A stretch of 64,000 bases of DNA from NCBI GenBank assembly GCA_015063885.1, contig SVTH01000007.1:41566-105565 (forward strand), written 5' to 3'. This DNA is from Oscillospiraceae bacterium. GTDB lineage: Bacteria; Bacillota; Clostridia; Oscillospirales; CAG-382. Shown one piece after another: positions 3,913-59,155 of this stretch. The notes beneath the pieces were generated by a model. The model searched no databases. It was not told the DNA's origin and was given only the letters and a program-made list of their open reading frames with translations. A program made the translations under genes and the position numbers. How positions within the stretch are numbered: the stretch's first letter is position 1; every line of letters starts with the position of its first letter.

Positions 3913-4437
3913 ATGAGATCGTTGTACGTTGCGGAAGCCTCCCTGTGGCTTCCCACCCTGAAAGCAGGGGAGACCATTCTGCTGAGCGGCAGAGTATATA
4001 CCGCCAGGGACGCGGCGCACAAGCGCCTGGACGGACTGCTGGACGCAGGGGAGGCATTGCCCTTTGACCTGCAGGGCGCCTTCGTGTATTACGCAGGTCC
4101 CACCCCCGCCCCCGCAGGGAAGGTATGCGGCTCCTTCGGCCCCACCACCTCCTGCCGTATGGACGGCTTTGCTTCCCGCCTGTACCGCAGGGGGCTGGCA
4201 GGCACCATTGGCAAAGGGGGCAGATCTCCCGCGGTGGCGGACGCCATCAAGGAAACGGGGGGCACCTACCTCATCGCCGTAGGCGGTGCGGGCGCCTTCT
4301 GCGCCTCCAAGATCACCTCCTGCCGTGAGATCGCCTTCCACGACCTGGGGTGCGAATCCATCAAGGAGCTCACCTTCAAGGACTTCCCCCTCACCGTGGC
4401 CATCGACAGCAAGGGGAACGACCTCTTCGCCCGCTAA
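3913..4437 (+). CDS. Fe-S type hydro-lyase beta subunit (class I fumarate hydratase / L(+)-tartrate dehydratase C-terminal domain)
   Basis: LKAGE..LLSG.VYTARDAAHKRL and GPTTS.RMD...IGKG motifs. TTGACA at 3852 is a plausible promoter. Confidence 0.8.
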   Translation: MRSLYVAEASLWLPTLKAGETILLSGRVYTARDAAHKRLDGLLDAGEALPFDLQGAFVYYAGPTPAPAGKVCGSFGPTTSCRMDGFASRLYRRGLAGTIGKGGRSPAVADAIKETGGTYLIAVGGAGAFCASKITSCREIAFHDLGCESIKELTFKDFPLTVAIDSKGNDLFAR

Positions 4438-50034: not shown

Positions 50035-50431
50035 TTATTTTCACTCCCGAAAACGGGCTCTTATCTATTTCGGGAGACCTATTGCAAAAAGATACAAAAC
50101 CGCCGTTTGCAAAGAAAATTAGCATTTGATTGTTTATCTTTTTGTCAATCTTCAAATACAAAACTGGCTAAAATTTTCTCTGCCCGTTTTTCAAAAACGA
50201 TTTGTATGCAAAAGTGCGCCGCAACAACACAATTGTGTAAGTTTGTTTGTATGCAAACGTCGAAAAATTATTATATACTTGAACTTTCGAAGGGGCGTAG
50301 CGAAACCGATACTTGTCAATAGCGTTAGCGATACAGAAATGTATTGTTAACGCTACTTTTTTGTGCCAGAATATTGAAATTCGATATTTTTGTGGTATAA
50401 TGTATTCGTAAAAAACTATTTGGAGGTATTT

Positions 50432-50857
50432 ATGAAATCTCGACTGGTTGAATACAAGGGTGCTCTTTCCCTTTTACTGCAAAACGGGAAGATATTACTT
50501 GTCAATATCGCAGAAGCGCGCGCCTATCTAATTGATTTTAACAATCCCGACTATTCAAACGTCCCCAACAAGTTGGGTCCCGAAGAGCTTGCGATGGAGT
50601 CCTATCCCGGAGATACGGTTGCCTACGTTTGCGACGAAGGCTTTTTGCACATTGTGCACGCAGAAAAGTATAAGGAACTTCTTTCGGATAAAGAGTGCAG
50701 ATATTTAACGGTTCCGGAATTTGCGGAACGCCACGGTAGACAAATTGCTATTGTTCGCCGCATGTGTCAAAACGGAAGAATTGAGGGAGCCATCCAAAAA
50801 GGCAAAACGTGGCTCATCCCTGCAACAAGTCCGTACCCGACAGATATAAAGTCTTAA
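50432..50857 (+). CDS. Small protein with a C-terminal excisionase/MerR-type HTH
   Basis: RYLTVPEFAERHGRQIAIVRRMCQNGRIEGAIQKGKTWLIP. GGAGG RBS. Promoter TTGAAA-N16-TGGTATAAT at 50374-50401. Confidence 0.7.
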   Translation: MKSRLVEYKGALSLLLQNGKILLVNIAEARAYLIDFNNPDYSNVPNKLGPEELAMESYPGDTVAYVCDEGFLHIVHAEKYKELLSDKECRYLTVPEFAERHGRQIAIVRRMCQNGRIEGAIQKGKTWLIPATSPYPTDIKS

Positions 50858-50881
50858 TATAAGTCTCAATGAGGTTTCAAC

Positions 50882-51457
50882 ATGGAAGAATGCTCACGTT
50901 TTAACCGCGCCATCGATTTTCATCCACTCTGTAATCCTCCCCTTAGAAAAGGAACTTGTTTTCCTACCTTATCATCCTTGAAACTTGAGCTTCGAAAACA
51001 GCGAAAGCATCTTTTGGGTTCTCACATTTCTTTACGTTCGTTCGTCTGCGATAACAATGGAGTAAACGAGGCTCTAATCGAGAAAATGTGCGACGTCCTC
51101 TCCGGATACACGCTTCTGTTTTGGATATACAGAAACAAAAACGCCGAGGAGTTTTGCCATCATTTTTACGACATAGTTATTCATTCCCTTACCTACGAAC
51201 ATTTGCGTGACGAATCTGTTGACGACATAATTGAGCTTGCCGGATGCCTATCTTTTTCTAAAGATGTTTTTGAAACCGTGATTAAGGAACTGATGCCCCC
51301 GGATAGAATCGGAGATTTGTTCTACTTCACGGAATCGTACGATGCAGCATTCTATACATCCGCCTTTGCTGATGCTGTGTTGGGCGCTGTATCTGTCTTT
51401 TTAGGAGCATTGAAGAATCCCATAGCGGAGAACTCTGGTAAGGAGGAGCACGTATGA
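50882..51457 (+). CDS. Hypothetical protein
   Basis: 191-aa ORF in an operon. Its stop overlaps the next start (ATGA). Confidence 0.6.
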   Translation: MEECSRFNRAIDFHPLCNPPLRKGTCFPTLSSLKLELRKQRKHLLGSHISLRSFVCDNNGVNEALIEKMCDVLSGYTLLFWIYRNKNAEEFCHHFYDIVIHSLTYEHLRDESVDDIIELAGCLSFSKDVFETVIKELMPPDRIGDLFYFTESYDAAFYTSAFADAVLGAVSVFLGALKNPIAENSGKEEHV

Positions 51458-52776
51458 GTTTGATTTACGACCAAGCCAGAGTTATCCTGCGTTCCGACGG
51501 AAGCGTACATATTGGTTTCCGAAGCAAGAGAACTATTTTCGCTACTGCGGAGAATATTCTTGCTTTGTTCGCCGACCCCAACGAGTTTGTCGAAACCGGA
51601 TATCTCTCATACGAAGATTCCACTTTCATTGCCAACCGCAAAGAATTTGAGTTGCGGGATATGTTGGGTTTAACCTTAGCAGCCGTTACCAACGACAAGC
51701 AAATCGTTTGTCATTTCCCCGAACTCTTCCGATATATCAATATTGCATGTTCCTCTGCTGAAACGAAAAATGCCCATTTGAATATGACGGATTTTGCATT
51801 TGAAGAGGTTTTGTCCGACGAGAAATCTTTCTTACTGAGGCACTACCTTGAACTTGCAGGAAGCGTGCGGGCTCCTTTGACCATCAAAAAGAATATTCAG
51901 CTGAGGGACGAGGTTCAGTTCGCAATCATTCGAGAAATTCTCAACGCCTTTTTTGACGAGGAGCTTCCCGAGCCCAAATCGTCAGATGACATTTCGAAAC
52001 GTATTGAAAACATACAGCAGGCATCTCTTTTGAAAAAGGAAATGGTTCCCGACGAAGAGTATGTAACCGTTCTTCAGTATGCGCAAATACATAATTTATC
52101 TGAGAATGCCGTACGAAGCCATTTGAAAGCCGGACATATAGCCGGTGCTAAACGAAACGAACGGGGACGTTGGTTGATTCCAAGGAACGTACAACCGGAA
52201 TCTCCCAATATGCTTATCGGCAGAACAAGGAAACAAAAAAACGAAGAAAAGGCTTATAGACGTCCGGCAAACGGCAGTGCCGCAGATGTGGAGGCGCACA
52301 TTATCAAGCAACGGCTGTTCACACACGCGATTGCTCCGTTTATACATACTTTCCAGGAGCTGGATTACTATACCAAACGAAGCTATCACGAGGTTAGGTG
52401 GAACGGACGCCCTTGCTTAATTATCGATGTCAATCCGGATTATCGGTGTACCATCGATAACAAAACCAATCGGGAGCGAATGATGGCAGGAGAAGCGCCC
52501 AGAGTGCCTCAAAAAAACAAAGAGGACCGCAGCTTTGACCTCCATCACGTAGGCAGAAACGCCGCTTCTCCCTTCGCTTGTATTCCGGATTACGACCACA
52601 ACGGCTCCGGTTTTTCCTCTATTTTTCATCAGGGGTCTCACGATAAAAATTTGCATGATACCGTCTTTGCCGGTGACCGCAAGCAATTTTGGCAGACCTA
52701 TATCGAAGAGTACGATAAGGCCGGAAGGTTTGAAAAAATTCCGTATTTGAATCCTCGCGCTAAAAGAAAGAAATAG
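51454..52776 (+). CDS. Multidomain protein: unknown N-terminal region, central excisionase-type HTH, C-terminal LHH-type HNH/EndoVII nuclease-like domain
   Basis: HTH: YVTVLQYAQIHNLSENAVRSHLKAGHIAGAKRNERGRWLIP. Nuclease-like: SFDLHHVGRN...IPDYDHNG..FH. Confidence 0.65.
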   Translation: MSLIYDQARVILRSDGSVHIGFRSKRTIFATAENILALFADPNEFVETGYLSYEDSTFIANRKEFELRDMLGLTLAAVTNDKQIVCHFPELFRYINIACSSAETKNAHLNMTDFAFEEVLSDEKSFLLRHYLELAGSVRAPLTIKKNIQLRDEVQFAIIREILNAFFDEELPEPKSSDDISKRIENIQQASLLKKEMVPDEEYVTVLQYAQIHNLSENAVRSHLKAGHIAGAKRNERGRWLIPRNVQPESPNMLIGRTRKQKNEEKAYRRPANGSAADVEAHIIKQRLFTHAIAPFIHTFQELDYYTKRSYHEVRWNGRPCLIIDVNPDYRCTIDNKTNRERMMAGEAPRVPQKNKEDRSFDLHHVGRNAASPFACIPDYDHNGSGFSSIFHQGSHDKNLHDTVFAGDRKQFWQTYIEEYDKAGRFEKIPYLNPRAKRKK

Positions 52777-52781
52777 TTTCT

Positions 52782-54752
52782 ATGGGACGAAAAAAGAAAG
52801 AAACGTTCACAACAGAACTGGAAGCTCGGAAACAAGACCTAATGAGACGATTTGCCGACGAATCACCCTTGATAAGGGATAGCCTGGTTAAGGATTTGCC
52901 GGCTTTTAACGCAGTGTTAAATATCCACGCCGAATCGTTCGAAGAAATCGCTTTGCGGTATCTGGCTAAGCGGCTAGACATTGCTTACAATCCGCAGAAA
53001 CCGCCCACTCCCCCTTGTCCGTTTTGTCACCAAACTGATACGGTAGGTAGAAAAACAGGGTTCATGTTCCGTTGCAAGCATTGCGAGAAAACCTTTTCTG
53101 CTACCCATGAAAGTATCGCTTCTGGAACAAAATGCGATGCGTTAACCTGGATGAAGATTTTGCAGAGCCTTTTAAATAATGTCAGTATCACCCAAACCTG
53201 CGAATACTGCGGAATATCGGAAAACACTTATTACAACATTCGGAACAGATTGTTTTACGCAATGTCTATTTTGCTAAAGGAATTGAGGCTGTACGGGAAC
53301 ATCGAAGTAGATAACACCTTTGTCCGAGTCAGTTACAAGGGAGTCAATTTGCAAGAAAGCGAATTTCCGGAGGACAGCATCTTTTTTGACGATACTTTTA
53401 AGCCGCGAGCTGCTAGGGACCGAGGCAGCGCGGTGCCATCGAGCGTAAAAAATGCTAATCACATCTGCATTTTCACCGGTATCGATGACCGGGGGCACGT
53501 TTTGGCTCGGTTTGTGGGCGTGGGAAACATCAGCTATCTTTCGTTGAAGCATTACATCCCGTCAGAGCTCTTCCTTTCTCAGGTGCCTCAAACAGACCCG
53601 TTTGCACTGGCTAAAAAGCAACGCAAGGATAAAAAAGAGCCCGAGACAAAGCCGTTGCAAAAGTCCAGGATAATTGCGGACAAAGAGGGGGCTATCCAGC
53701 GTTACGCCCAAACGCTCGACGTTGAATTCGAGTCTCACGTATATCGAAAGGACGGCATCCAGCGCCGATTGTCCAAGGATGCTTTGGGCATCCAACACGT
53801 TAACGCCCTGCATCGCCGTTTGAAAACCTTTCTTCGGATGCATGGATACATGTCTTCTAAATACCTTCCTGGTTTTTTAACGCTGTTTGAGTTTGTAGAA
53901 AACACGCGAGCCTCTCAGGAAGCAATCGCCGAATTGTTTCGGATTATTGCCTGCCCCGGCTTAGGAAAACCGCCTTCATTTTTCAAAAACATGTTTACGG
54001 TTCCCAACTACCTCGTGGAGTGGTTGCATAGCGAGCATCCTCTGAAGAAACTACCGCACAACAAAATGCTTGCGTTTTACATGATGGATATCATGAAGCA
54101 TCCGGACCTGTATCCGGATGAAAAGGTTACCATGGCGCAAATCGAGGAGGAAACCCAATATACGGCTCCAACAATTCGCAAAATATATCGAGAGCTCAAT
54201 GACGCCGGATACCGAGACTTGATTATTCAGTACTTCTCTCCTTCGAAGAAAAAGAAGGAGACGGAGAAACAAGGAAAGAAAAAGGCGCCTGCGCCGACCA
54301 CTATCAATCCAACGGTCCTTGCTATTTACGATGCGTATGCCGAGGTATGTAAAATCCCCCAGTGGAAACGGCCAACCTTCGAGCAATTCTTGGCAGAGAA
54401 AAACAAGGAGCTTAACACCAATTACAAACGAACCAACATGATGGCGAAATTCAAGTACATACAAAACAGCGGGTTGAGGCAGCCATTCGAAAAGCGTAAC
54501 AAGGAAGAGCCACGCGACTTAGCGTTTGAATTGCTTCGCGCTTATGAGGAACTGAGAGCGAGTTATCAGGAAAAAGGCGAACCATTGCCTCGTGTGGAGA
54601 GCATGACTGCCACTATTGGGGAGCGATATAATGTGTCTGCTCATACTGTTAAAGCTCAGGTTTCAACCGCCAGAGCTTATTTAAGCCGGCAAAGAGAACT
54701 TGATGCGCAATCCGAGACTACAGCGACGGTTGAGGCAGAGAACAAAAATTAA
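52782..54752 (+). CDS. IS1595-family (ISXO2-like) DDE transposase homolog with an N-terminal zinc ribbon and a ~250-aa C-terminal extension; operon-embedded
   Basis: CPFC..(N15)..CKHCEKTFSA zinc ribbon. IEVDNTF (D), IIADKEG (D), HVNALHRRLKTFLR (N..K), matching the DDNK arrangement of IS1595. No terminal inverted repeats seen. Confidence 0.65.
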   Translation: MGRKKKETFTTELEARKQDLMRRFADESPLIRDSLVKDLPAFNAVLNIHAESFEEIALRYLAKRLDIAYNPQKPPTPPCPFCHQTDTVGRKTGFMFRCKHCEKTFSATHESIASGTKCDALTWMKILQSLLNNVSITQTCEYCGISENTYYNIRNRLFYAMSILLKELRLYGNIEVDNTFVRVSYKGVNLQESEFPEDSIFFDDTFKPRAARDRGSAVPSSVKNANHICIFTGIDDRGHVLARFVGVGNISYLSLKHYIPSELFLSQVPQTDPFALAKKQRKDKKEPETKPLQKSRIIADKEGAIQRYAQTLDVEFESHVYRKDGIQRRLSKDALGIQHVNALHRRLKTFLRMHGYMSSKYLPGFLTLFEFVENTRASQEAIAELFRIIACPGLGKPPSFFKNMFTVPNYLVEWLHSEHPLKKLPHNKMLAFYMMDIMKHPDLYPDEKVTMAQIEEETQYTAPTIRKIYRELNDAGYRDLIIQYFSPSKKKKETEKQGKKKAPAPTTINPTVLAIYDAYAEVCKIPQWKRPTFEQFLAEKNKELNTNYKRTNMMAKFKYIQNSGLRQPFEKRNKEEPRDLAFELLRAYEELRASYQEKGEPLPRVESMTATIGERYNVSAHTVKAQVSTARAYLSRQRELDAQSETTATVEAENKN

Positions 54753-54804
54753 CCTCTCTGCCAAGAGGTTAAATTATAGATTTCGTGTTTTTTCGTTTTC
54801 CCTC

Positions 54805-54833
54805 TTGATTTTTACTGCGTTGCGTGGTAAAAT
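54805..54833 (+). promoter_or_regulatory. Promoter TTGATT-N17-(TG)GTAAAAT
   Basis: Read directly. Lies downstream of the hairpin TTAACCTCT..AGAGGTTAA that follows the DDE gene. Confidence 0.65.
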
Positions 54834-54839
54834 ACAGTC

Positions 54840-55053
54840 ACTGCAAGCGAACGGCTTGTAAATATACGCCAGACGTTGGCCAGGGTAAGACGCTATCAAT
54901 CGGCTCCCTTGAATGGGGCGTAGCTTACATGTGAGCCAACCTACTGAAATAGTAACAGCGCTGATTTAGGATTGAGTTTACAACTCTGAGTATTTGGCTG
55001 TGCGCTCGGAAACATAGATGCCATGAAACGTCTTATACGGTTGACGTTTTTTT
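54840..55053 (+). ncRNA. Candidate ~215-nt structured non-coding RNA (unknown class)
   Basis: Bounded by the promoter above and the terminator AAACGTC-N10-GACGTTT+T7. Has several internal hairpins and no credible ORF or RBS. Confidence 0.5.
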
Positions 55054-55095
55054 GGTGTGCTTGTTTCCAATCTCAAAAACATATTTATGGTTTCA

Positions 55096-55127
55096 AGCCC
55101 GATGGCATCTATGCTGTCGGGCTTTTT
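55096..55127 (+). terminator. Second terminator hairpin; its loop is complementary to 55013-55024
   Basis: AGCCCGA-N14-TCGGGCT+T5. ATGGCATCTATG (55102-55113) is the exact reverse complement of CATAGATGCCAT (55013-55024). Confidence 0.65.
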
Positions 55128-55213
55128 GTCGTTCGTATGCAGGGAAAGGAGGCACGATGCATCGCAGCGCAAATATGTATGCGCCCCACAAAAAGGATGA
55201 GGAATAAGGAAGC

Positions 55214-55771
55214 ATGAGCATTATAAGCAAAATCAAAGCCTTCTTTTCCGTAGGCGGAAACCAATTCTCATTGGACCTCAAATCTGCGGAAGTAAGGCAA
55301 GACAGGACGTTTTTACATCCTGCCGACAACGACAACGTGACTTACGTGGTAAAGGCAAGCAACGTACAGCTTCTTCTGAACGACGGAGAAGACATAGCAC
55401 CGGAGGATTTTATGGTGGTGGAAGGAGCCGTTGACCCGGCTACGAAGCCTAAGATTTTGCCTCCTACGACCCCGAAACCCCGTGGGCCCCAAACGCCGGA
55501 TTGTTTGCGGACACCGCGAGACCCCGAAGATACTCCGCCGCACCTTACCAAACGGAAAATCACCTTTACTGTCTATGAAGACGAGTTTTCTCTCATAAAC
55601 AGGTTGGTTAAGGAATCCGGATACAAACGCTCAATATTTTTCGTGGCTTGTATCCAGAACTCGCAGAAGAAGTCTGTGGCAGGTAGCTTATCCGTAGAAT
55701 GCAACCGCGTGCAAAAATCTTTAGAAAGGAGAGAGCAGGAGCAAAAAGAACGATTGCTGACTGACCGATAA
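55214..55771 (+). CDS. Protein with a Pro-rich linker and a C-terminal ribbon-helix-helix (MobC-like) domain
   Basis: KRKITFTVYEDEFSLINRLVKESGYKRSIFFVACI resembles RHH/MobC-type domains. AAGGAAG RBS. Confidence 0.6.
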   Translation: MSIISKIKAFFSVGGNQFSLDLKSAEVRQDRTFLHPADNDNVTYVVKASNVQLLLNDGEDIAPEDFMVVEGAVDPATKPKILPPTTPKPRGPQTPDCLRTPRDPEDTPPHLTKRKITFTVYEDEFSLINRLVKESGYKRSIFFVACIQNSQKKSVAGSLSVECNRVQKSLERREQEQKERLLTDR

Positions 55772-55842
55772 TACGTTATTTGTCAGGGACGCAATCACTC
55801 ATTCGTACATTTATATCTTATTTACTACAAAGAGGTGCAAAA

Positions 55843-57441
55843 ATGAAGAGAATTCGTTACCATTCCGCAACGGAGCTTTTGGAAAAGGCGCGCCAAAAGA
55901 TGGTTCCGTTGCCGAACCAATGGGCGGCACAGAAGAGGATTGCGTCCCTAATTGCCATGCACTTGAGCAAGCTGCAAGCCCTTGATAAAGGCGCAGACCC
56001 GGGGGAGCTGGTCAGCTGCTCGGCGTTCTTGGTTGGTCCCACCGGCAACGGGAAGACCTACATCATCAAATGTCTGGCAGAGGCCTGCGGTCTGCATTTC
56101 GCTGCCATTGACTGCACGTCCATCACCCAGGCAGGTGTCCGTGGGAAAAATCTGGGAGACAATCTGGCCGCCATCAAAAGCGAGAACCCTGCCTTTTTCG
56201 AGGGTGGAATTCTTCTCTTGGATGAAGCAGACAAGGCGTTCTACAAAGGCGACCCGCACTACGATGCCTACTCGCCGATGCAGGAATTTTTGAAGCTGAT
56301 GGAGGGCGGGGAGTACTCCTTCCGGTCGGATGGCATAAGTGGAACCGTCAATCTGGATAAGACCCTCATCCTATTGGCGGGCGCTTGCGCCAACATCGTA
56401 CATATTCTAAAAAGGCGGTACAATCCGCGCCCCGTCATTGGCTTTTCGTCGCAAAGCCCCGGGTCTGAGATTGACATTGAGAACTACGGCCCGTACGTCA
56501 CCCTTGATGACCTGATTGCTTACGGCATGATGCCCGAGCTTGCCTCTCGTATCAACACAGTCATTGCGATTCCCAAAATTGACGAGGCAGGGTATCAGCG
56601 GTTACTTATCGACACCGCTAAGACATCTGCGTTGAATCGTTTTCGCAATCAGTTCGCCATGCGGGGTGTCGCACTGGATATCGCTCCCGAGGCGGTTCAA
56701 AGGATTGCCGAACTGTGTGTTGAGAGAAACGTGGGGGCTCGCTCTATCAACGCCATTCTCTTCGAGAAGCTTTCTGAGGCTTACAGCGCCGTAGACGATA
56801 CCCCAACCCACGGCAGAGTCATTCTTCAAACAGACGAACTTGGAGAACTCCAAACAGTGTATCAGGAGGGGGAGCGTCTTTCCTTCCCGATGTTCACGGA
56901 ACGAGCCTGCTTTGATGGGGATTTCTCCATCAAGGACAAACTCCGGGATGAAGACTCCATCAATCGACTTTGCGATGATATATGCGCAAAGGCGTCCTTG
57001 GAAGACGTGTCTGCCGAGCCATTACTCTATTACTTCCTGCAAACAGCGTGTCGCTACATGGCGGAGGAGGTTCGCCCGGAGGACAGGAGCATGGTCAACC
57101 TATGCAGGCTCGCTGGCGCCACGGAGAAACCGGATAGTTCTAAAGCCGGTAAGTCTCCCTTTGACATCGTCTGCGAGGACTACCTTTTGAAAATCATCTC
57201 CAAGGCGGAGGACAGTTTGAAGCACCAAGAGGAGGAAGCTCCTCTGTCGCGTGTATCGAAAAACCGGATGTGGGCGACCTCCAAAGACCATTTCAAGTAC
57301 GCCATTTTTAATCATTATTACTCGGCGTTCTGCCGGACGGAGAGACAGCACGCAGACGTACCAAAGGTGTTGGCGGAAGCCATCGATACTGCAAGGAAAC
57401 ATTACATATCCAATAAAAAAGAAAAGAGCAGCACTATATAA
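55843..57441 (+). CDS. ClpX/HslU-like AAA+ ATPase lacking the zinc-binding domain, with a ~180-aa C-terminal extension
   Basis: Walker A GPTGNGKT, Walker B ILLLDEADK. PELASRIN...IPKIDEAGYQRLL and VGARSINAIL align with ClpX sensor and arginine regions. Confidence 0.75.
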   Translation: MKRIRYHSATELLEKARQKMVPLPNQWAAQKRIASLIAMHLSKLQALDKGADPGELVSCSAFLVGPTGNGKTYIIKCLAEACGLHFAAIDCTSITQAGVRGKNLGDNLAAIKSENPAFFEGGILLLDEADKAFYKGDPHYDAYSPMQEFLKLMEGGEYSFRSDGISGTVNLDKTLILLAGACANIVHILKRRYNPRPVIGFSSQSPGSEIDIENYGPYVTLDDLIAYGMMPELASRINTVIAIPKIDEAGYQRLLIDTAKTSALNRFRNQFAMRGVALDIAPEAVQRIAELCVERNVGARSINAILFEKLSEAYSAVDDTPTHGRVILQTDELGELQTVYQEGERLSFPMFTERACFDGDFSIKDKLRDEDSINRLCDDICAKASLEDVSAEPLLYYFLQTACRYMAEEVRPEDRSMVNLCRLAGATEKPDSSKAGKSPFDIVCEDYLLKIISKAEDSLKHQEEEAPLSRVSKNRMWATSKDHFKYAIFNHYYSAFCRTERQHADVPKVLAEAIDTARKHYISNKKEKSSTI

Positions 57442-57517: not shown

Positions 57518-57702
57518 TTGAAAAAATATGACGTTAGTTGTATACTGCGTACGCTACACAATTCTAATCTACAGTTGTCGGGAACCACTTTGGTAAAAGG
57601 TGCGTTCTCTTTTCGTCATACCCGGCAACTGGTACGAATTGTGTAGCAACAATGAGGAGAGCACTTTTTCGGTGTGCTCCCTCGTTGGAGCACACTTTTT
57701 TT
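57518..57702 (+). promoter_or_regulatory. Promoter plus riboswitch-like structured leader with alternative antiterminator/terminator
   Basis: TTGAAA-N17-TATACT. Nested helices GCTACACAATTC/GAATTGTGTAGC and AGTTGTCGGG/CCCGGCAACT. GAGCAC..GTGCTC overlaps the terminator GTGTGCTCC..GGAGCACAC+T7. Confidence 0.55.
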
Positions 57703-57727: not shown

Positions 57728-59155
57728 ATGAACACCAAAAAAATGAAGAAACTGTGTTTTGCCGCTACAGCTTGCTTGCTATTCGCCTTCGTTACCCTGT
57801 TGGCAAGCTGTGCTCCGGATAACACTCCCGCCTCCTCTTCTGCGGAAAGCTCGAACAACGAAAATTCCGAGTTATCCAAACACGAAAGCACTATCTCTGA
57901 CGAAAGTTTTTCGCCATCATCCTCCGAAACCGAATCCGGCTCCTCCTCAGATGCTTCCGACGAGGAATCTTCTGAGCCTTCCGATGACATTTCAACAGAG
58001 CCATCGGCTTCTCCGGAAGAATCCGATGTCACATCTTCACAAGACAATTCACCGGAACCCTCCAGCGAACCCGGCGAACAGGAGAACTCAGAAGACATCT
58101 CAGAGCCTCCTGTACACGTGCACGAATGGGAAGAAGCCGATTGCGAAAACCCAAAAACCTGCGTGACGTGCGGCGAGACGACCGGCACTGTCGCAGGACA
58201 TGATTGGCAGATTGCTACGTGCACGTCTGCTAAGACCTGTGCGACCTGCGGAAAGACCGAAGGCTCTGCCAAGGGCCATAATTGGAAAGCCGCCACCTGC
58301 GTCTGTGCTAAGACCTGCCAGGTCTGTGGGGCAACCGAAGGGGAAGCCAACGGACACGATTGGCAAGGGGCCACCTGCACAATCGCAAAAACGTGCAAGA
58401 CCTGTCAACAAACAACCGGCAACGCGAACGGTCATCAATATCTCGACGGCGTATGTGAAACATGCGGTGAAAGGGACCCTGACTACCAAGAACCGATTAC
58501 ATATTCGCAAGGTTTGGCCTATCAAGTAAATGAAGATGGAAAAACCTGCTCGGTCAGTATCGGAACGTGCACCGACGCTGACATAAGCATCCCGCCGACA
58601 ATCGACGGATATATCGTTACTGAAATTGGCGAAGATGCCTTTGCAAACTGCGCAAACATAACAAGCATCACCATTCCGGATAGCGTGACCACTATCTCTT
58701 ATTATCCCTTTGCACGTTGCCCAAATTTGGTTTTTACGCAATACGAGCAAGGGCTATATTTAGGAACCAGCACCAATCCATACCATGCATTGGTGGGGAT
58801 TGCCTCTGATGACACGGGTTCTGTCGTTTCGTTTAAGGTTCACGAAGATACTAAGTGTATTGCCGACAACACGTTCGGCGGCTGCTTTAATATGGTGAGC
58901 ATCGAGCTTCCGAATGGCATAACTCGTATTGGACGCCGTATGTTCGAAGACTGCGAAAGATTAGAAAGCGTGCACGTGCCCGGCAACGTGACACAGATTG
59001 CAGCTGGAGCATTCCAGGGTTGCCGCAACTTAGAGCGTGTAACCTTTGAAGGAACGGTAACCCAGTGGGACGTCATCACCAAGGGCAATTTCTGGAACGA
59101 CAACGTTCCCGCCGCCGAAGTGGTTTGCTCTGATGGCACTGTGAGTCTGGCGTGA
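57728..59155 (+). CDS. Lipoprotein with an S/E-rich linker, four Cys-rich ~24-aa repeats and BspA-type leucine-rich repeats
   Basis: Lipobox LLASC. Repeats GH.W..ATC...KTC..CG.T.G at about 58112-58474. LRR segments (ITSITIPDSVTTI..., ITRIGRRMFEDC...). Confidence 0.75.
   Translation: MNTKKMKKLCFAATACLLFAFVTLLASCAPDNTPASSSAESSNNENSELSKHESTISDESFSPSSSETESGSSSDASDEESSEPSDDISTEPSASPEESDVTSSQDNSPEPSSEPGEQENSEDISEPPVHVHEWEEADCENPKTCVTCGETTGTVAGHDWQIATCTSAKTCATCGKTEGSAKGHNWKAATCVCAKTCQVCGATEGEANGHDWQGATCTIAKTCKTCQQTTGNANGHQYLDGVCETCGERDPDYQEPITYSQGLAYQVNEDGKTCSVSIGTCTDADISIPPTIDGYIVTEIGEDAFANCANITSITIPDSVTTISYYPFARCPNLVFTQYEQGLYLGTSTNPYHALVGIASDDTGSVVSFKVHEDTKCIADNTFGGCFNMVSIELPNGITRIGRRMFEDCERLESVHVPGNVTQIAAGAFQGCRNLERVTFEGTVTQWDVITKGNFWNDNVPAAEVVCSDGTVSLA

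What the first reader, a model, noticed from the sequence alone, without database searches (positions are those of the whole stretch)
54805..55127. Promoter- and terminator-bounded ~215-nt structured RNA immediately downstream of the DDE-like gene
Seen in sequence: TTGATT-N17-TAAAAT (with upstream TG) at 54805-54833, then about 215 nt with no RBS or ORF but many local hairpins (for example CAAGC/GCTTG, GCCA/TGGC, GAGTT/AACTC). It ends in an intrinsic terminator at 55026-55053. A second terminator at 55096-55127 has a loop (ATGGCATCTATG) that is the perfect complement of CATAGATGCCAT inside the first RNA, which suggests alternative long-range pairing. I do not recognise it as any standard RNA (not tmRNA, 6S, SRP or RNase P by eye). 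Inference: the position between a transposase-like gene and an AAA+ gene recalls guide or bridge RNAs of IS110, TnpB and IscB systems. That link is pure speculation from context.
Basis: partly seen in the sequence, partly recalled or inferred. Interest (0 to 1): 0.75.

Follow-up and report, generated by a model that had tools for sequence, protein, structure and literature searches.

The report
Attenuator-type leader RNA in a mobile island
The promoter, the two terminators and the 12-base complementarity are real, but together they look like the regulatory 5' leader (a transcription attenuator) of the next operon in a gut-Clostridia mobile element, not a guide RNA for the neighbouring transposase-like gene.

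Summary
The promoter (54805-54833), terminator T1 (55025-55053), terminator T2 (55095-55127) and the 12-nt complementarity (55013-55024 / 55102-55113) are all present. The complementarity is far above chance.

The RNA body is not special. The first ~146 nt fold no better than shuffles (z -0.9) and are unrecognisable in the one divergent homologue (L007). The conserved, strongly structured part is 54986-55130 (z -4.6; L007 -5.6), and it spans both terminators.

It can adopt two mutually exclusive folds. One has a long imperfect stem around T1 plus the T2 hairpin. The other has a 21-nt long-range helix (55004-55024 : 55102-55122). L007 keeps both through compensatory changes.

No second promoter precedes the downstream genes: a 16-codon sORF, a 185-aa orphan gene, then AAA+, LRR and M48 genes. 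These genes therefore depend on read-through.

The RNA does not travel with the 656-aa IS1595-like gene. Relatives keep the promoter but carry other leaders or none. Some relatives sit beside VirD4/TraG, PcfJ and integrase genes, so the setting is an ICE/IME.

Best reading: a cis-acting attenuator leader, similar in logic to pLS20 cATT but with a different topology. It has no Rfam match. The guide or bridge RNA idea is not supported. Covariation rests on 3 distinct sequences, and no transcript data exist.

The parts
54749..54772 (+). Hairpin TTAACCTCT-CTGCCA-AGAGGTTAA that overlaps the stop codon of the 656-aa gene. It is the probable end or insulator of the upstream four-gene operon.
   Evidence: reported on the - strand; kept in L001, L006 and L008. 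Its role is inferred.
54805..54833 (+). Promoter P1: a T-rich upstream stretch, -35 TTGATT, a 17-nt spacer and an extended -10 TGgTAAAAT. The transcription start is inferred near 54840.
   Evidence: Conserved in window, L006, L008, L009, L001, L010 and L007 (A6). Homology with L001 stops at 54829, inside the -10 box.
54840..54985 (+). Variable 5' segment of the leader (~146 nt). It is not conserved and is no more structured than chance.
   Evidence: z -0.94 in the window and -0.38 in L007. blastn aligns L007 only from ~54980 onward.
54986..55009 (+). Weak upstream hairpin CUGAG(54986-90) / CUCGG(55005-09). Its 3' strand overlaps the base of the next two helices.
   Evidence: U.G in the window becomes C-G in L007. 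Its role is inferred.
55008..55068 (+). Long imperfect stem-loop around T1. It is built from GGAAACA(55008-14):UGUUUCC(55062-68), AUGCCA(55018-23):UGGUGU(55053-58), and the T1 core GAAACGUC(55025-32):GACGUUUU(43-50) followed by a U run to 55053.
   Evidence: Minimum-free-energy and centroid folds. In L007 the outer helix grows to 10 bp, AUGC:GUGU becomes GUGC:GCAC, and the T1 stem is replaced by CGUAAUC/GAUUACG.
55004..55024 (+). 5' arm of the long-range helix (GCUCGG-AAA-CAUAGAUGCCAU). It competes with the lower part of the long stem-loop.
   Evidence: I2.
55095..55127 (+). Terminator T2 (13-bp hairpin plus UUUUU). Its inner 5' strand, loop and 3' strand (55102-55122) form the 3' arm of the long-range helix.
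   Evidence: A ~40-nt block is almost identical in L007.
55145..55207 (+). Shine-Dalgarno sequence AAAGGAGG (55145-52) and a 16-codon sORF (55157-55207, MHRSANMYAPHKKDEE). The sORF contains the hairpin GCGCA[AAUAUGUA]UGCGC (55167-84) and ends 6 nt before the 185-aa gene.
   Evidence: In L007 the SD is identical, the start codon is TTG, the ORF has 22 codons, and the hairpin has the same loop on a different stem. L020 has an 8-codon sORF with AAAUAUG in a loop.
55214..55771 (+). The 185-aa orphan gene, the first long gene controlled by the leader.
   Evidence: Only three relatives among 5.8 billion proteins. No family or PDB match. AlphaFold2 pLDDT 43.
55844..57441 (+). ClpX-like AAA+ ATPase gene. 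The probable true start is the ATG at 55844, after the SD AAGAGGTG. The same operon continues to the LRR and M48 genes.
   Evidence: Homology with L001 resumes at 55829.

Best explanation
Proposal: this is the cis-acting 5' leader of the operon that follows the 656-aa gene in an integrative mobile element of a gut Clostridia-type genome.

Proposed mechanism:
- P1 fires near 54840.
- After ~165 nt of poorly constrained RNA, the transcript enters a ~145-nt attenuator.
- In the 'local' fold, the segment 55008-55024 is locked into a long imperfect stem around T1, and the T2 hairpin forms. Transcription then stops at T1 or T2 and releases short RNAs of ~215 or ~290 nt.
- In the alternative fold, 55004-55024 pairs with the inner 5' strand, loop and 3' strand of T2 (55102-55122). 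This removes the T2 hairpin.
- The balance between the two folds sets how many polymerases reach the sORF, the 185-aa gene and the AAA+, LRR and M48 genes.

Shown: the elements, their conservation and the compatibility of both folds in a divergent homologue.

Inferred: that they switch, which fold allows read-through, and what signal shifts the balance (a protein, translation or an RNA). None of these was identified.
For: 1. P1 is conserved at the -35, spacer and extended -10 positions in seven loci.
2. T1 is kept as a hairpin plus U run with a completely different stem in L007. T2 is kept almost base for base.
3. The 3' 145 nt fold far better than shuffles in both lineages (z -4.6 and -5.6), while the 5' part does not.
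4. Both folds are 100% paired in all 3 distinct sequences. Every one of the six differences between the window and L007 in the two arms is structure-compatible: G-C to A-U, an A/U co-insertion, A-U to G.U, and G.U to G-C in T2.
5. The helices contain several G.U pairs, and the + strand folds 8-21 kcal/mol better than the - strand. U runs follow both hairpins on the + strand.
6. The two folds are energetically close: -51.3 against -45.0 kcal/mol in the window, and -59.4 against -48.7 in L007.
7. No other conserved promoter lies between P1 and the sORF or the 185-aa gene.
8. The same design recurs elsewhere:
   - L001/L010 keep P1 but have another ~330-nt leader with its own terminator before the AAA+ gene.
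   - L012 has a ~330-nt leader plus terminator before a VirD4/TraG gene.
   - The window has a second promoter-leader-terminator unit at 57518-57700 before the LRR gene.
9. Published precedent exists for attenuator leaders in Gram-positive conjugative elements: pLS20 cATT (PMC13401043).
Against: - There are only 3 distinct sequences, so column shuffles do not discriminate (170/500 and 165/500 reach the observed values).
- There are no transcript data.
- The long-range helix also pairs the 3' strand of T2 directly before the U run. It could therefore itself act as a terminator stem rather than an antiterminator.
- The T1 core hairpin is unaffected by either fold, so a switch would control only T2.
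- No sensor or ligand is identified, and the 5' domain that could host one is not conserved.
- The window itself shows no conjugation genes. The mobile-element context comes from relatives.
Confidence: 0.55

Rival explanations
1. It is a stand-alone trans-acting small RNA of ~215 nt, running from P1 to T1. It would regulate element or host genes by base pairing, and the downstream genes would be expressed independently.
For: - The unit is bounded by a promoter and a terminator.
- Terminated leaders can be stable and can act in trans.
- The fast-evolving 5' part could be a specificity region.
Against: - The body of the RNA is neither conserved nor structured above chance.
- The conserved block extends beyond T1 to T2.
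- No complementarity to the rest of the window exceeds chance.
- No second promoter exists for the downstream genes.
Confidence: 0.15
2. It is a processive antitermination RNA of the put, EAR, conAn2 or canT type. The nascent leader would bind RNA polymerase and make it ignore T1, T2 and later terminators in the operon.
For: - A strong promoter is followed by tandem terminators and then a long operon with a further internal terminator at 57671-57696.
- Cis-acting antitermination RNAs are documented in Gram-positive conjugative elements (PMC8191782, PMC11658703) and are poorly conserved in sequence.
Against: - The segment upstream of the terminators is unconserved and unstructured.
- No ConAn1-type (PF17362) protein is present.
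- No Rfam antiterminator family matches.
- The conserved long-range pairing involves the terminator itself, which is the signature of a local attenuator.
Confidence: 0.1
3. It is a DNA-level element. The nested inverted repeats would be an origin of transfer, a single-strand origin, or operator sites for an element-encoded DNA-binding protein, rather than RNA structure.
For: - Relatives lie in ICE/IME contexts with VirD4/TraG, PcfJ and integrase genes.
- The repeats are dense and nested.
- The T2 hairpin is conserved in sequence, not only in structure.
- By eye, the C-terminus of the 185-aa protein resembles a ribbon-helix-helix fold. This was not confirmed.
Against: - U runs follow both hairpins on the + strand.
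- Several helices depend on G.U pairs, which would be A.C mismatches on the other strand.
- The A-to-G change in L007 breaks the DNA-level symmetry but keeps RNA pairing.
- A conserved promoter sits directly upstream.
- A + strand ssDNA hairpin (an sso or the transferred strand) is not fully excluded.
Confidence: 0.1
4. It is a guide or bridge RNA used by the adjacent DDE-like protein to choose its DNA targets.
For: Only its position next to a transposase-like gene, and the absence of a match to any known RNA family.
Against: - The protein is IS1595-like (72.5 bits). That family is not known to use RNA guides (established knowledge).
- Relatives that are 50-90% identical lack this RNA.
- There are no terminal repeats and no complementary target in the window.
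Confidence: 0.03

Closest known systems
Zipper-type transcriptional attenuator cATT of the pLS20 conjugation operon (PMC13401043, NAR 2026)
   Same: - A long leader after a strong element promoter.
- An intrinsic terminator just upstream of the SD of the first gene.
- A long imperfect stem-loop upstream of that terminator.
- An upstream segment complementary to the terminator's 5' stem and loop, which gives two mutually exclusive folds of similar energy.
- A mobile element of Firmicutes.
   Different: - The complementary segment here lies inside the 5' strand of the long stem, not in a separate upstream SL-2. The alternative helix therefore competes with the long stem instead of extending it.
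- The helix also pairs the terminator's 3' strand.
- The long stem is itself a terminator (T1).
- The first gene is not conAn1 (PF17362).
- There is no sequence similarity.
pCF10 prgQ leader / IRS1 terminator (Qs versus QL RNAs) and pIP501/pT181-type antisense-driven attenuation
   Same: A constitutive promoter produces a short terminated RNA by default. Read-through into the element's functional operon is the regulated step.
   Different: Those systems rely on a countertranscript. No conserved antisense promoter was found here. No peptide pheromone ORF lies in the leader.
Processive antitermination RNAs of mobile elements (Tn916 canT, pLS20 conAn2, HK022 put, B. subtilis EAR)
   Same: A cis-acting RNA encoded between a promoter and terminators in a Gram-positive mobile element. 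It is large and poorly conserved.
   Different: The conserved part here is the terminator-overlapping switch, not an upstream RNA domain. No partner protein of the ConAn1 family is present. Processivity was not tested.
Bridge RNA (IS110) and omega/reRNA (IscB, TnpB)
   Same: A non-coding RNA next to a transposase-family gene.
   Different: - The protein family is different (IS1595-like DDE).
- The RNA is not co-inherited with the protein.
- There are no target- or donor-matching loops.
- No Rfam hit.

Membership tests
Intrinsic (Rho-independent) terminator | G+C-containing hairpin immediately followed by a U run on the transcribed strand | tested here: met
   T2: 13 bp, 7 G-C pairs, then TTTTT, -20.5 kcal/mol. 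T1: a 7-8 bp stem with a 10-nt loop, then 7 U, -7.4 kcal/mol. L007 keeps T1 with a different stem followed by UUUUU.
Transcription attenuator (terminator/antiterminator leader) | Lies between a promoter and the first gene, with no other promoter downstream | tested here: met
   P1 at 54805-54833. No further conserved promoter before 55157 or 55214, even with relaxed criteria.
Transcription attenuator (terminator/antiterminator leader) | A conserved alternative pairing that is mutually exclusive with the terminator hairpin | tested here: met
   55004-55024 pairs with 55102-55122. All cells are paired in 3 distinct sequences, with one double change, a co-insertion and one G.U change. Statistical power is low.
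Transcription attenuator (terminator/antiterminator leader) | Read-through actually changes with the fold or with a signal | not testable with these tools
   Needs reporter assays, in vitro transcription or Term-seq.
Zipper-type attenuator cATT (pLS20 family) | Precedes conAn1 (Pfam PF17362) at the start of a conjugation operon | tested here: not met
   The 185-aa protein and the sORF have no Pfam hit even at E<=1. PF17362 is named as the ConAn1 domain in PMC8191782.
Zipper-type attenuator cATT (pLS20 family) | The 3' strand of a separate weak upstream stem-loop (SL-2) pairs with the terminator's 5' stem and loop and so extends the long central stem | tested here: not met
   The complementary segment (55013-55024) lies within the 5' strand of the long stem (55008-55068). 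The alternative helix crosses that stem rather than extending it.
Bridge RNA / omega RNA guide systems | The partner protein belongs to the IS110, IscB or TnpB families | tested here: not met
   The best family is the IS1595 transposase (NF033547, 72.5 bits, against a cut-off of 75), plus HTH_23.
Bridge RNA / omega RNA guide systems | The RNA is co-conserved with the protein across relatives | tested here: not met
   L001 (89% aa identity) and L010, L012, L014 and L018 lack it. Only the window, L006, L008, L009 and L007 carry it.
Bridge RNA / omega RNA guide systems | RNA loops complementary to the element's ends or targets | tested here: not met
   No match within the window beyond chance (best E = 0.22). 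No terminal inverted repeats. External targets were not searched.
Any curated RNA family (Rfam 15: riboswitches, T-box, 6S, tmRNA, EAR, HEARO and others) | Covariance-model score at or above the gathering threshold | tested here: not met
   No hit in this region at gathering threshold. The best hit at E<=10 is 17.4 bits against a threshold of 52, and it is driven by the terminator.
oriT / single-strand origin | A nic site recognised by a relaxase, or a primer-RNA promoter formed in ssDNA | not testable with these tools
   No recognisable relaxase gene is in the window. The inverted repeats exist, but strand asymmetry and the U runs favour RNA.

The most novel reading that the evidence does not exclude
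The elements that carry the conserved four-gene module may use promoter P1 as a fixed socket, behind which different structured leader RNAs are exchanged as cassettes together with their cargo operons. Four types were seen: the window type, the L001/L010 type, the L012 type and the L020 type. The window-type leader could then be more than a passive attenuator. It could be a sensor or a polymerase-modifying RNA, and its abundant ~215/290-nt terminated product could also act in trans to report the element's state. That would make it a new class of mobile-element riboregulator.
Probability: 0.12. Interest if true: 0.6.

Novelty: new member of a known kind. Interest (0 to 1): 0.32.

Why it matters
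If the reading is right, the AAA+, LRR-lipoprotein and M48-protease cargo of a gut-commensal mobile element is held behind an RNA switch.

This would add a topologically distinct example to the recently recognised use of attenuator leaders in Gram-positive conjugative and mobilisable elements.

The analysis also shows that homology blocks between related islands break exactly at promoters (54829 and 57550). This suggests promoter-anchored modular exchange of leader-plus-cargo units.

The finding does not open a new mechanism class. The family is also very rare in current databases, with about five loci.

Tried and rejected
- Rfam at gathering threshold and at E<=10: nothing.
- blastn of the intergenic region against E. 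coli genomes, plasmids and phages: no match.
- Viral contigs: no relative of the protein and no copy of the T2 motif.
- Genome and metagenome scans with the 656-aa protein: only 1 and 4 loci, none with this leader.
- Search for more homologues through the 185-aa protein: only P0085, P0086 and P0087. The P0087 loci lack the attenuator.
- The idea that the 5' ~146 nt is a structured aptamer or guide: rejected, because z is about -0.9 and -0.4 and it is not conserved.
- The 64-codon ORF at 55023-55217: rejected, because it has no SD and is 19 codons with different residues in L007.
- A second promoter between T1 and T2 using the conserved GCTTGTTTCC as a -35: rejected, because the -10 is not conserved. 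That motif is explained instead as the 3' strand of the long stem.
- An antisense promoter for a countertranscript: only a weak match, in L007 and not in the window.
- The 185-aa protein as a ribbon-helix-helix/MobC or ConAn1 protein: no family or PDB support, and the AlphaFold2 model is unusable (pLDDT 43).
- Terminal inverted repeats around the DDE-like gene: none.

Full report
WHAT IS IN THE SEQUENCE

The finding lies in the 461-bp gap between two genes. Upstream is a 656-aa gene (52782-54752). Downstream is a 185-aa ORF (55214-55771).

The promoter-like site TTGATT-N17-TAAAAT with an upstream TG is at 54805-54833.

T2 is a 13-bp hairpin at 55095-55124 followed by TTTTT.

T1 (GAAACGUC, a 10-nt loop, GACGUUUU, then U's; 55025-55053) was missed by the scanner only because of its loop size.

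The 12-mer ATGGCATCTATG occurs exactly twice in the 64-kb window, once on each strand, at 55013-55024 and 55102-55113. Chance expectation is 0.08. The repeat finder extends this pair to 21 nt (55004-55024 / 55102-55122).

Rfam finds nothing here, at gathering threshold or at E<=10. The best 'hits' are terminator-driven, at 17 bits.

CONTEXT

From about 50045 onward the window drops from ~57% to 42-50% G+C. This stretch is an island.

The gene order, all on the + strand, is:
- a 155-aa HTH (excisionase-like) protein;
- a 191-aa protein;
- a 440-aa HTH_17 + LHH-nuclease protein;
- the 656-aa protein (zinc ribbon, HTH_23 and an IS1595-like DDE core at 72.5 bits, just under the cut-off of 75);
- the gap that holds the finding;
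- the 185-aa orphan protein;
- a ClpX-like AAA+ ATPase;
- an LRR_5 lipoprotein;
- an M48 peptidase.

The 656-aa protein has at least 84 relatives (33-95% identity). In every locus examined it is the last gene of the same four-gene module.

What follows that module varies:
- a VirD4/TraG coupling protein plus a tyrosine integrase (L012/L013);
- giant LRR proteins (L014-L017);
- an oppositely oriented PcfJ gene inside an element that also has an M23 peptidase and TraG (L018).

The setting is therefore an integrative mobilisable or conjugative element of gut Clostridia. The closest genome hit is a Eubacteriales MAG. There are no relatives in viral contigs.

WHO ELSE HAS THE RNA

L006 and L008 are ~96% identical copies. 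L009 (70% protein identity) matches the first 45 nt before its contig ends. L007 is the only divergent copy; its flanking proteins are 62% and 56% identical.

L001 has an 89% identical protein. Its DNA homology with the window stops at 54829, inside the -10 box, and resumes at 55829 just before the AAA+ start. L001 and L010 keep the promoter but carry a different ~330-nt leader with its own terminator, and they lack the 185-aa gene.

P1 is conserved in all seven loci that could be aligned: a T-rich upstream stretch, TTGA[T/C], a 17-nt spacer and GTG[G/A]TAnnnT. The promoter is therefore real, and it belongs to the downstream operon. The RNA is not tied to the DDE-like protein.

WHICH PART IS UNDER CONSTRAINT

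They have no detectable similarity between the two lineages.

The next ~145 nt (54986-55130) give z -4.61 (window) and -5.62 (L007). They are as conserved as the flanking coding DNA, or more so. The + strand folds 8-21 kcal/mol better than the - strand.

TWO FOLDS, BOTH CONSERVED

Local fold:
- GGAAACA(55008-14) pairs with UGUUUCC(55062-68).
- AUGCCA(55018-23) pairs with UGGUGU(55053-58).
- Together with the T1 core these make one long imperfect stem-loop.
- T2 forms separately.

In L007 the outer helix is 10 bp, AUGC:GUGU becomes GUGC:GCAC, the T1 stem is entirely different (CGUAAUC/GAUUACG with a GUAA loop), and a G.U pair in T2 becomes G-C.

Long-range fold: GCUCGG-AAA-CAUAGAUGCCAU (55004-24) pairs with AUGGCAUCUAUG-CUG-UCGGGC (55102-22).

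L007 differs from the window at six positions in the two arms, and all six are compatible with this helix:
- G-C becomes A-U at the outer pair (two of the six changes).
- An A inserted in the 5' arm is matched by a U inserted in the 3' arm (two more).
- One A-U becomes G.U.
- One change falls in the internal loop.

The two folds cross each other, so they exclude one another. Their energies are -51.3 against -45.0 kcal/mol in the window and -59.4 against -48.7 in L007.

Limitation: with only three distinct sequences, the shuffle controls of the count of structure pairs are uninformative (170/500 and 165/500). The support is qualitative.

DOWNSTREAM OF T2

Eighteen nt after T2's U run lies a perfect SD (AAAGGAGG, 55145-52) and a 16-codon sORF (55157-55207). 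The sORF ends 6 nt before the 185-aa gene.

L007 has the identical SD, a TTG start and 22 codons. Inside the sORF, a hairpin presents the same loop AAUAUGUA on a different stem: GCGCA/UGCGC in the window against UGAUGUA/UACAUCG in L007. L020, a distant relative of the 185-aa gene, has an 8-codon sORF with AAAUAUG in a loop.

No promoter conserved between the window and L007 lies between P1 and these genes, even with relaxed criteria. Their transcription must therefore pass T1 and T2.

INTERPRETATION

The best-supported reading is a cis-acting leader with a transcription attenuator.
- By default, short RNAs end at T1 or T2.
- The alternative long-range helix removes the T2 hairpin and changes read-through into the sORF, the 185-aa gene and the AAA+/LRR/M48 operon.

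The same promoter-leader-terminator design recurs in several places:
- the L001/L010 and L012 leaders;
- L020, upstream of its 187-aa gene;
- inside the window at 57518-57700, before the LRR gene. [quoted passage not shown]

The closest published system is the zipper-type attenuator cATT of pLS20 and related plasmids (PMC13401043). The shared features are a long leader, a long imperfect stem, a terminator just before the first SD, and an upstream segment complementary to the terminator's 5' stem and loop.

It is not a member of that family, for three reasons:
- The first gene is not ConAn1 (PF17362).
- The complementary segment sits inside the long stem rather than in a separate SL-2.
- The long stem is itself a terminator.

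OPEN POINTS AND RIVALS

- The long-range helix also pairs T2's 3' strand right before the U run. I cannot say which fold is 'on'.
- T1 is untouched by the switch.
- The input signal is unknown.
- A stand-alone trans-acting sRNA, a processive antitermination RNA (compare canT and conAn2; PMC11658703, PMC8191782) and a DNA-level oriT, sso or operator role remain possible at lower probability.
- The guide or bridge RNA idea fails on four counts: the protein family, the lack of co-inheritance, the absence of element-end repeats and the absence of complementary targets.

VERDICT

This is a real, conserved, strand-specific RNA regulatory element that is not in Rfam. It is very rare in current data. 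It is most likely a new member of the known class of attenuator leaders in Gram-positive mobile elements. Interest is moderate to low.

Noticed in passing
window 57518-57700: A second promoter-leader-terminator unit lies between the AAA+ gene and the LRR lipoprotein gene (ATG at 57729). It has the promoter TTGAAA-17-TATACT. Two nested long-range helices follow: CTACACAATTC/GAATTGTGTAG and AGTTGTCGGG/CCCGGCAACT. [quoted passage not shown] Homology with L001 starts at 57550, right after the -10 box.
   Followed up: partly
L001 8066-8410 and L010 5146-5497: A different ~330-nt leader sits behind the same P1 promoter, directly before the AAA+ gene. It has a conserved core (GTGCGGATGTCTGT..TTCCGCACGGCG, CTGAAAGAG, CCGGGG..CCCGG) with 8 compensatory pairs between the two loci. 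An inner hairpin plus T run is enclosed by an outer long-range helix (GCGAGCGTATGTAT / ATACATATGCTCGC in L001, with a longer covarying version in L010), and a T run follows that helix. No Rfam hit.
   Followed up: partly
L012 10090-10460 (same in L013): About 330 nt of G+C-rich non-coding leader sit after a promoter-like site. The leader ends in a strong terminator (GAGCGTATTCCACTTACTTTCC..GGAAGTAGGTGGAGTGCGCTC+T6) just before a VirD4/TraG coupling-protein gene.
   Followed up: no
L020 7070-7277: The promoter TTGACT-17-TATAAT is followed by two direct copies of GTGTGAGGGTAACAC(N)TAT..AAAGAA(A/G)TCCCCATT. A terminator (CCCTTGTGTT..AACACAAGGG+T) follows, immediately before a 187-aa gene. This looks like a protein-binding attenuator leader.
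   Followed up: no
window 50390-54752; L001, L006, L009, L010, L012-L019: A conserved four-gene module: a 143-155-aa HTH protein, a ~190-205-aa protein, a ~440-aa HTH_17+LHH nuclease, and a ~650-aa protein with a zinc ribbon, HTH_23 and an IS1595-like core. In the ~650-aa protein C79, C82, C98, D177 and D300 are invariant and C101 is nearly invariant. The genes are tightly packed, with no terminal inverted repeats. The 'transposase' therefore looks like a domesticated or element-level function rather than an autonomous IS. There are no relatives in viral contigs.
   Followed up: partly
window 54829 and 57550 (against L001): Homology blocks between related islands begin or end exactly at -10 boxes or transcription starts. 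This suggests that leader-plus-cargo cassettes are exchanged at conserved promoters. Leader type does not follow the phylogeny of the 656-aa protein: relatives at 95% and 70% identity carry the window type, and relatives at 89% and 64% carry the L001 type.
   Followed up: partly
window 51259-51275 (-), 53981-54002 (+), 55073-55092 (+): There are three copies of TCAAAAACAT[G/A]TTTA(YGGTT). One lies in the T1-T2 spacer and two lie inside coding regions of the module. The motif is not conserved in L007, and its significance is borderline (E about 0.9).
   Followed up: no
window 50320-50401: At the island's left edge, a 16-bp terminator hairpin (50320-50355) is followed by a near-consensus promoter (TTGAAA-16-TATAAT with TG). 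This promoter drives the four-gene module. The G+C drop and the homology with L001 both start at ~50045.
   Followed up: no
window 54931-54941; L004 ~4176-4186: The 11-mer GTGAGCCAACC is shared between the variable 5' part of this leader and a promoter-proximal leader in the distant locus L004/L005. This is probably chance.
   Followed up: no
window 55780-55843: The mechanical ORF call for the AAA+ gene starts at a TTG at 55780. However, the SD AAGAGGTG plus the ATG at 55844 aligns with the start codon in L001, and L008 has the same 72-nt gap. The true start is therefore probably 55844.
   Followed up: partly
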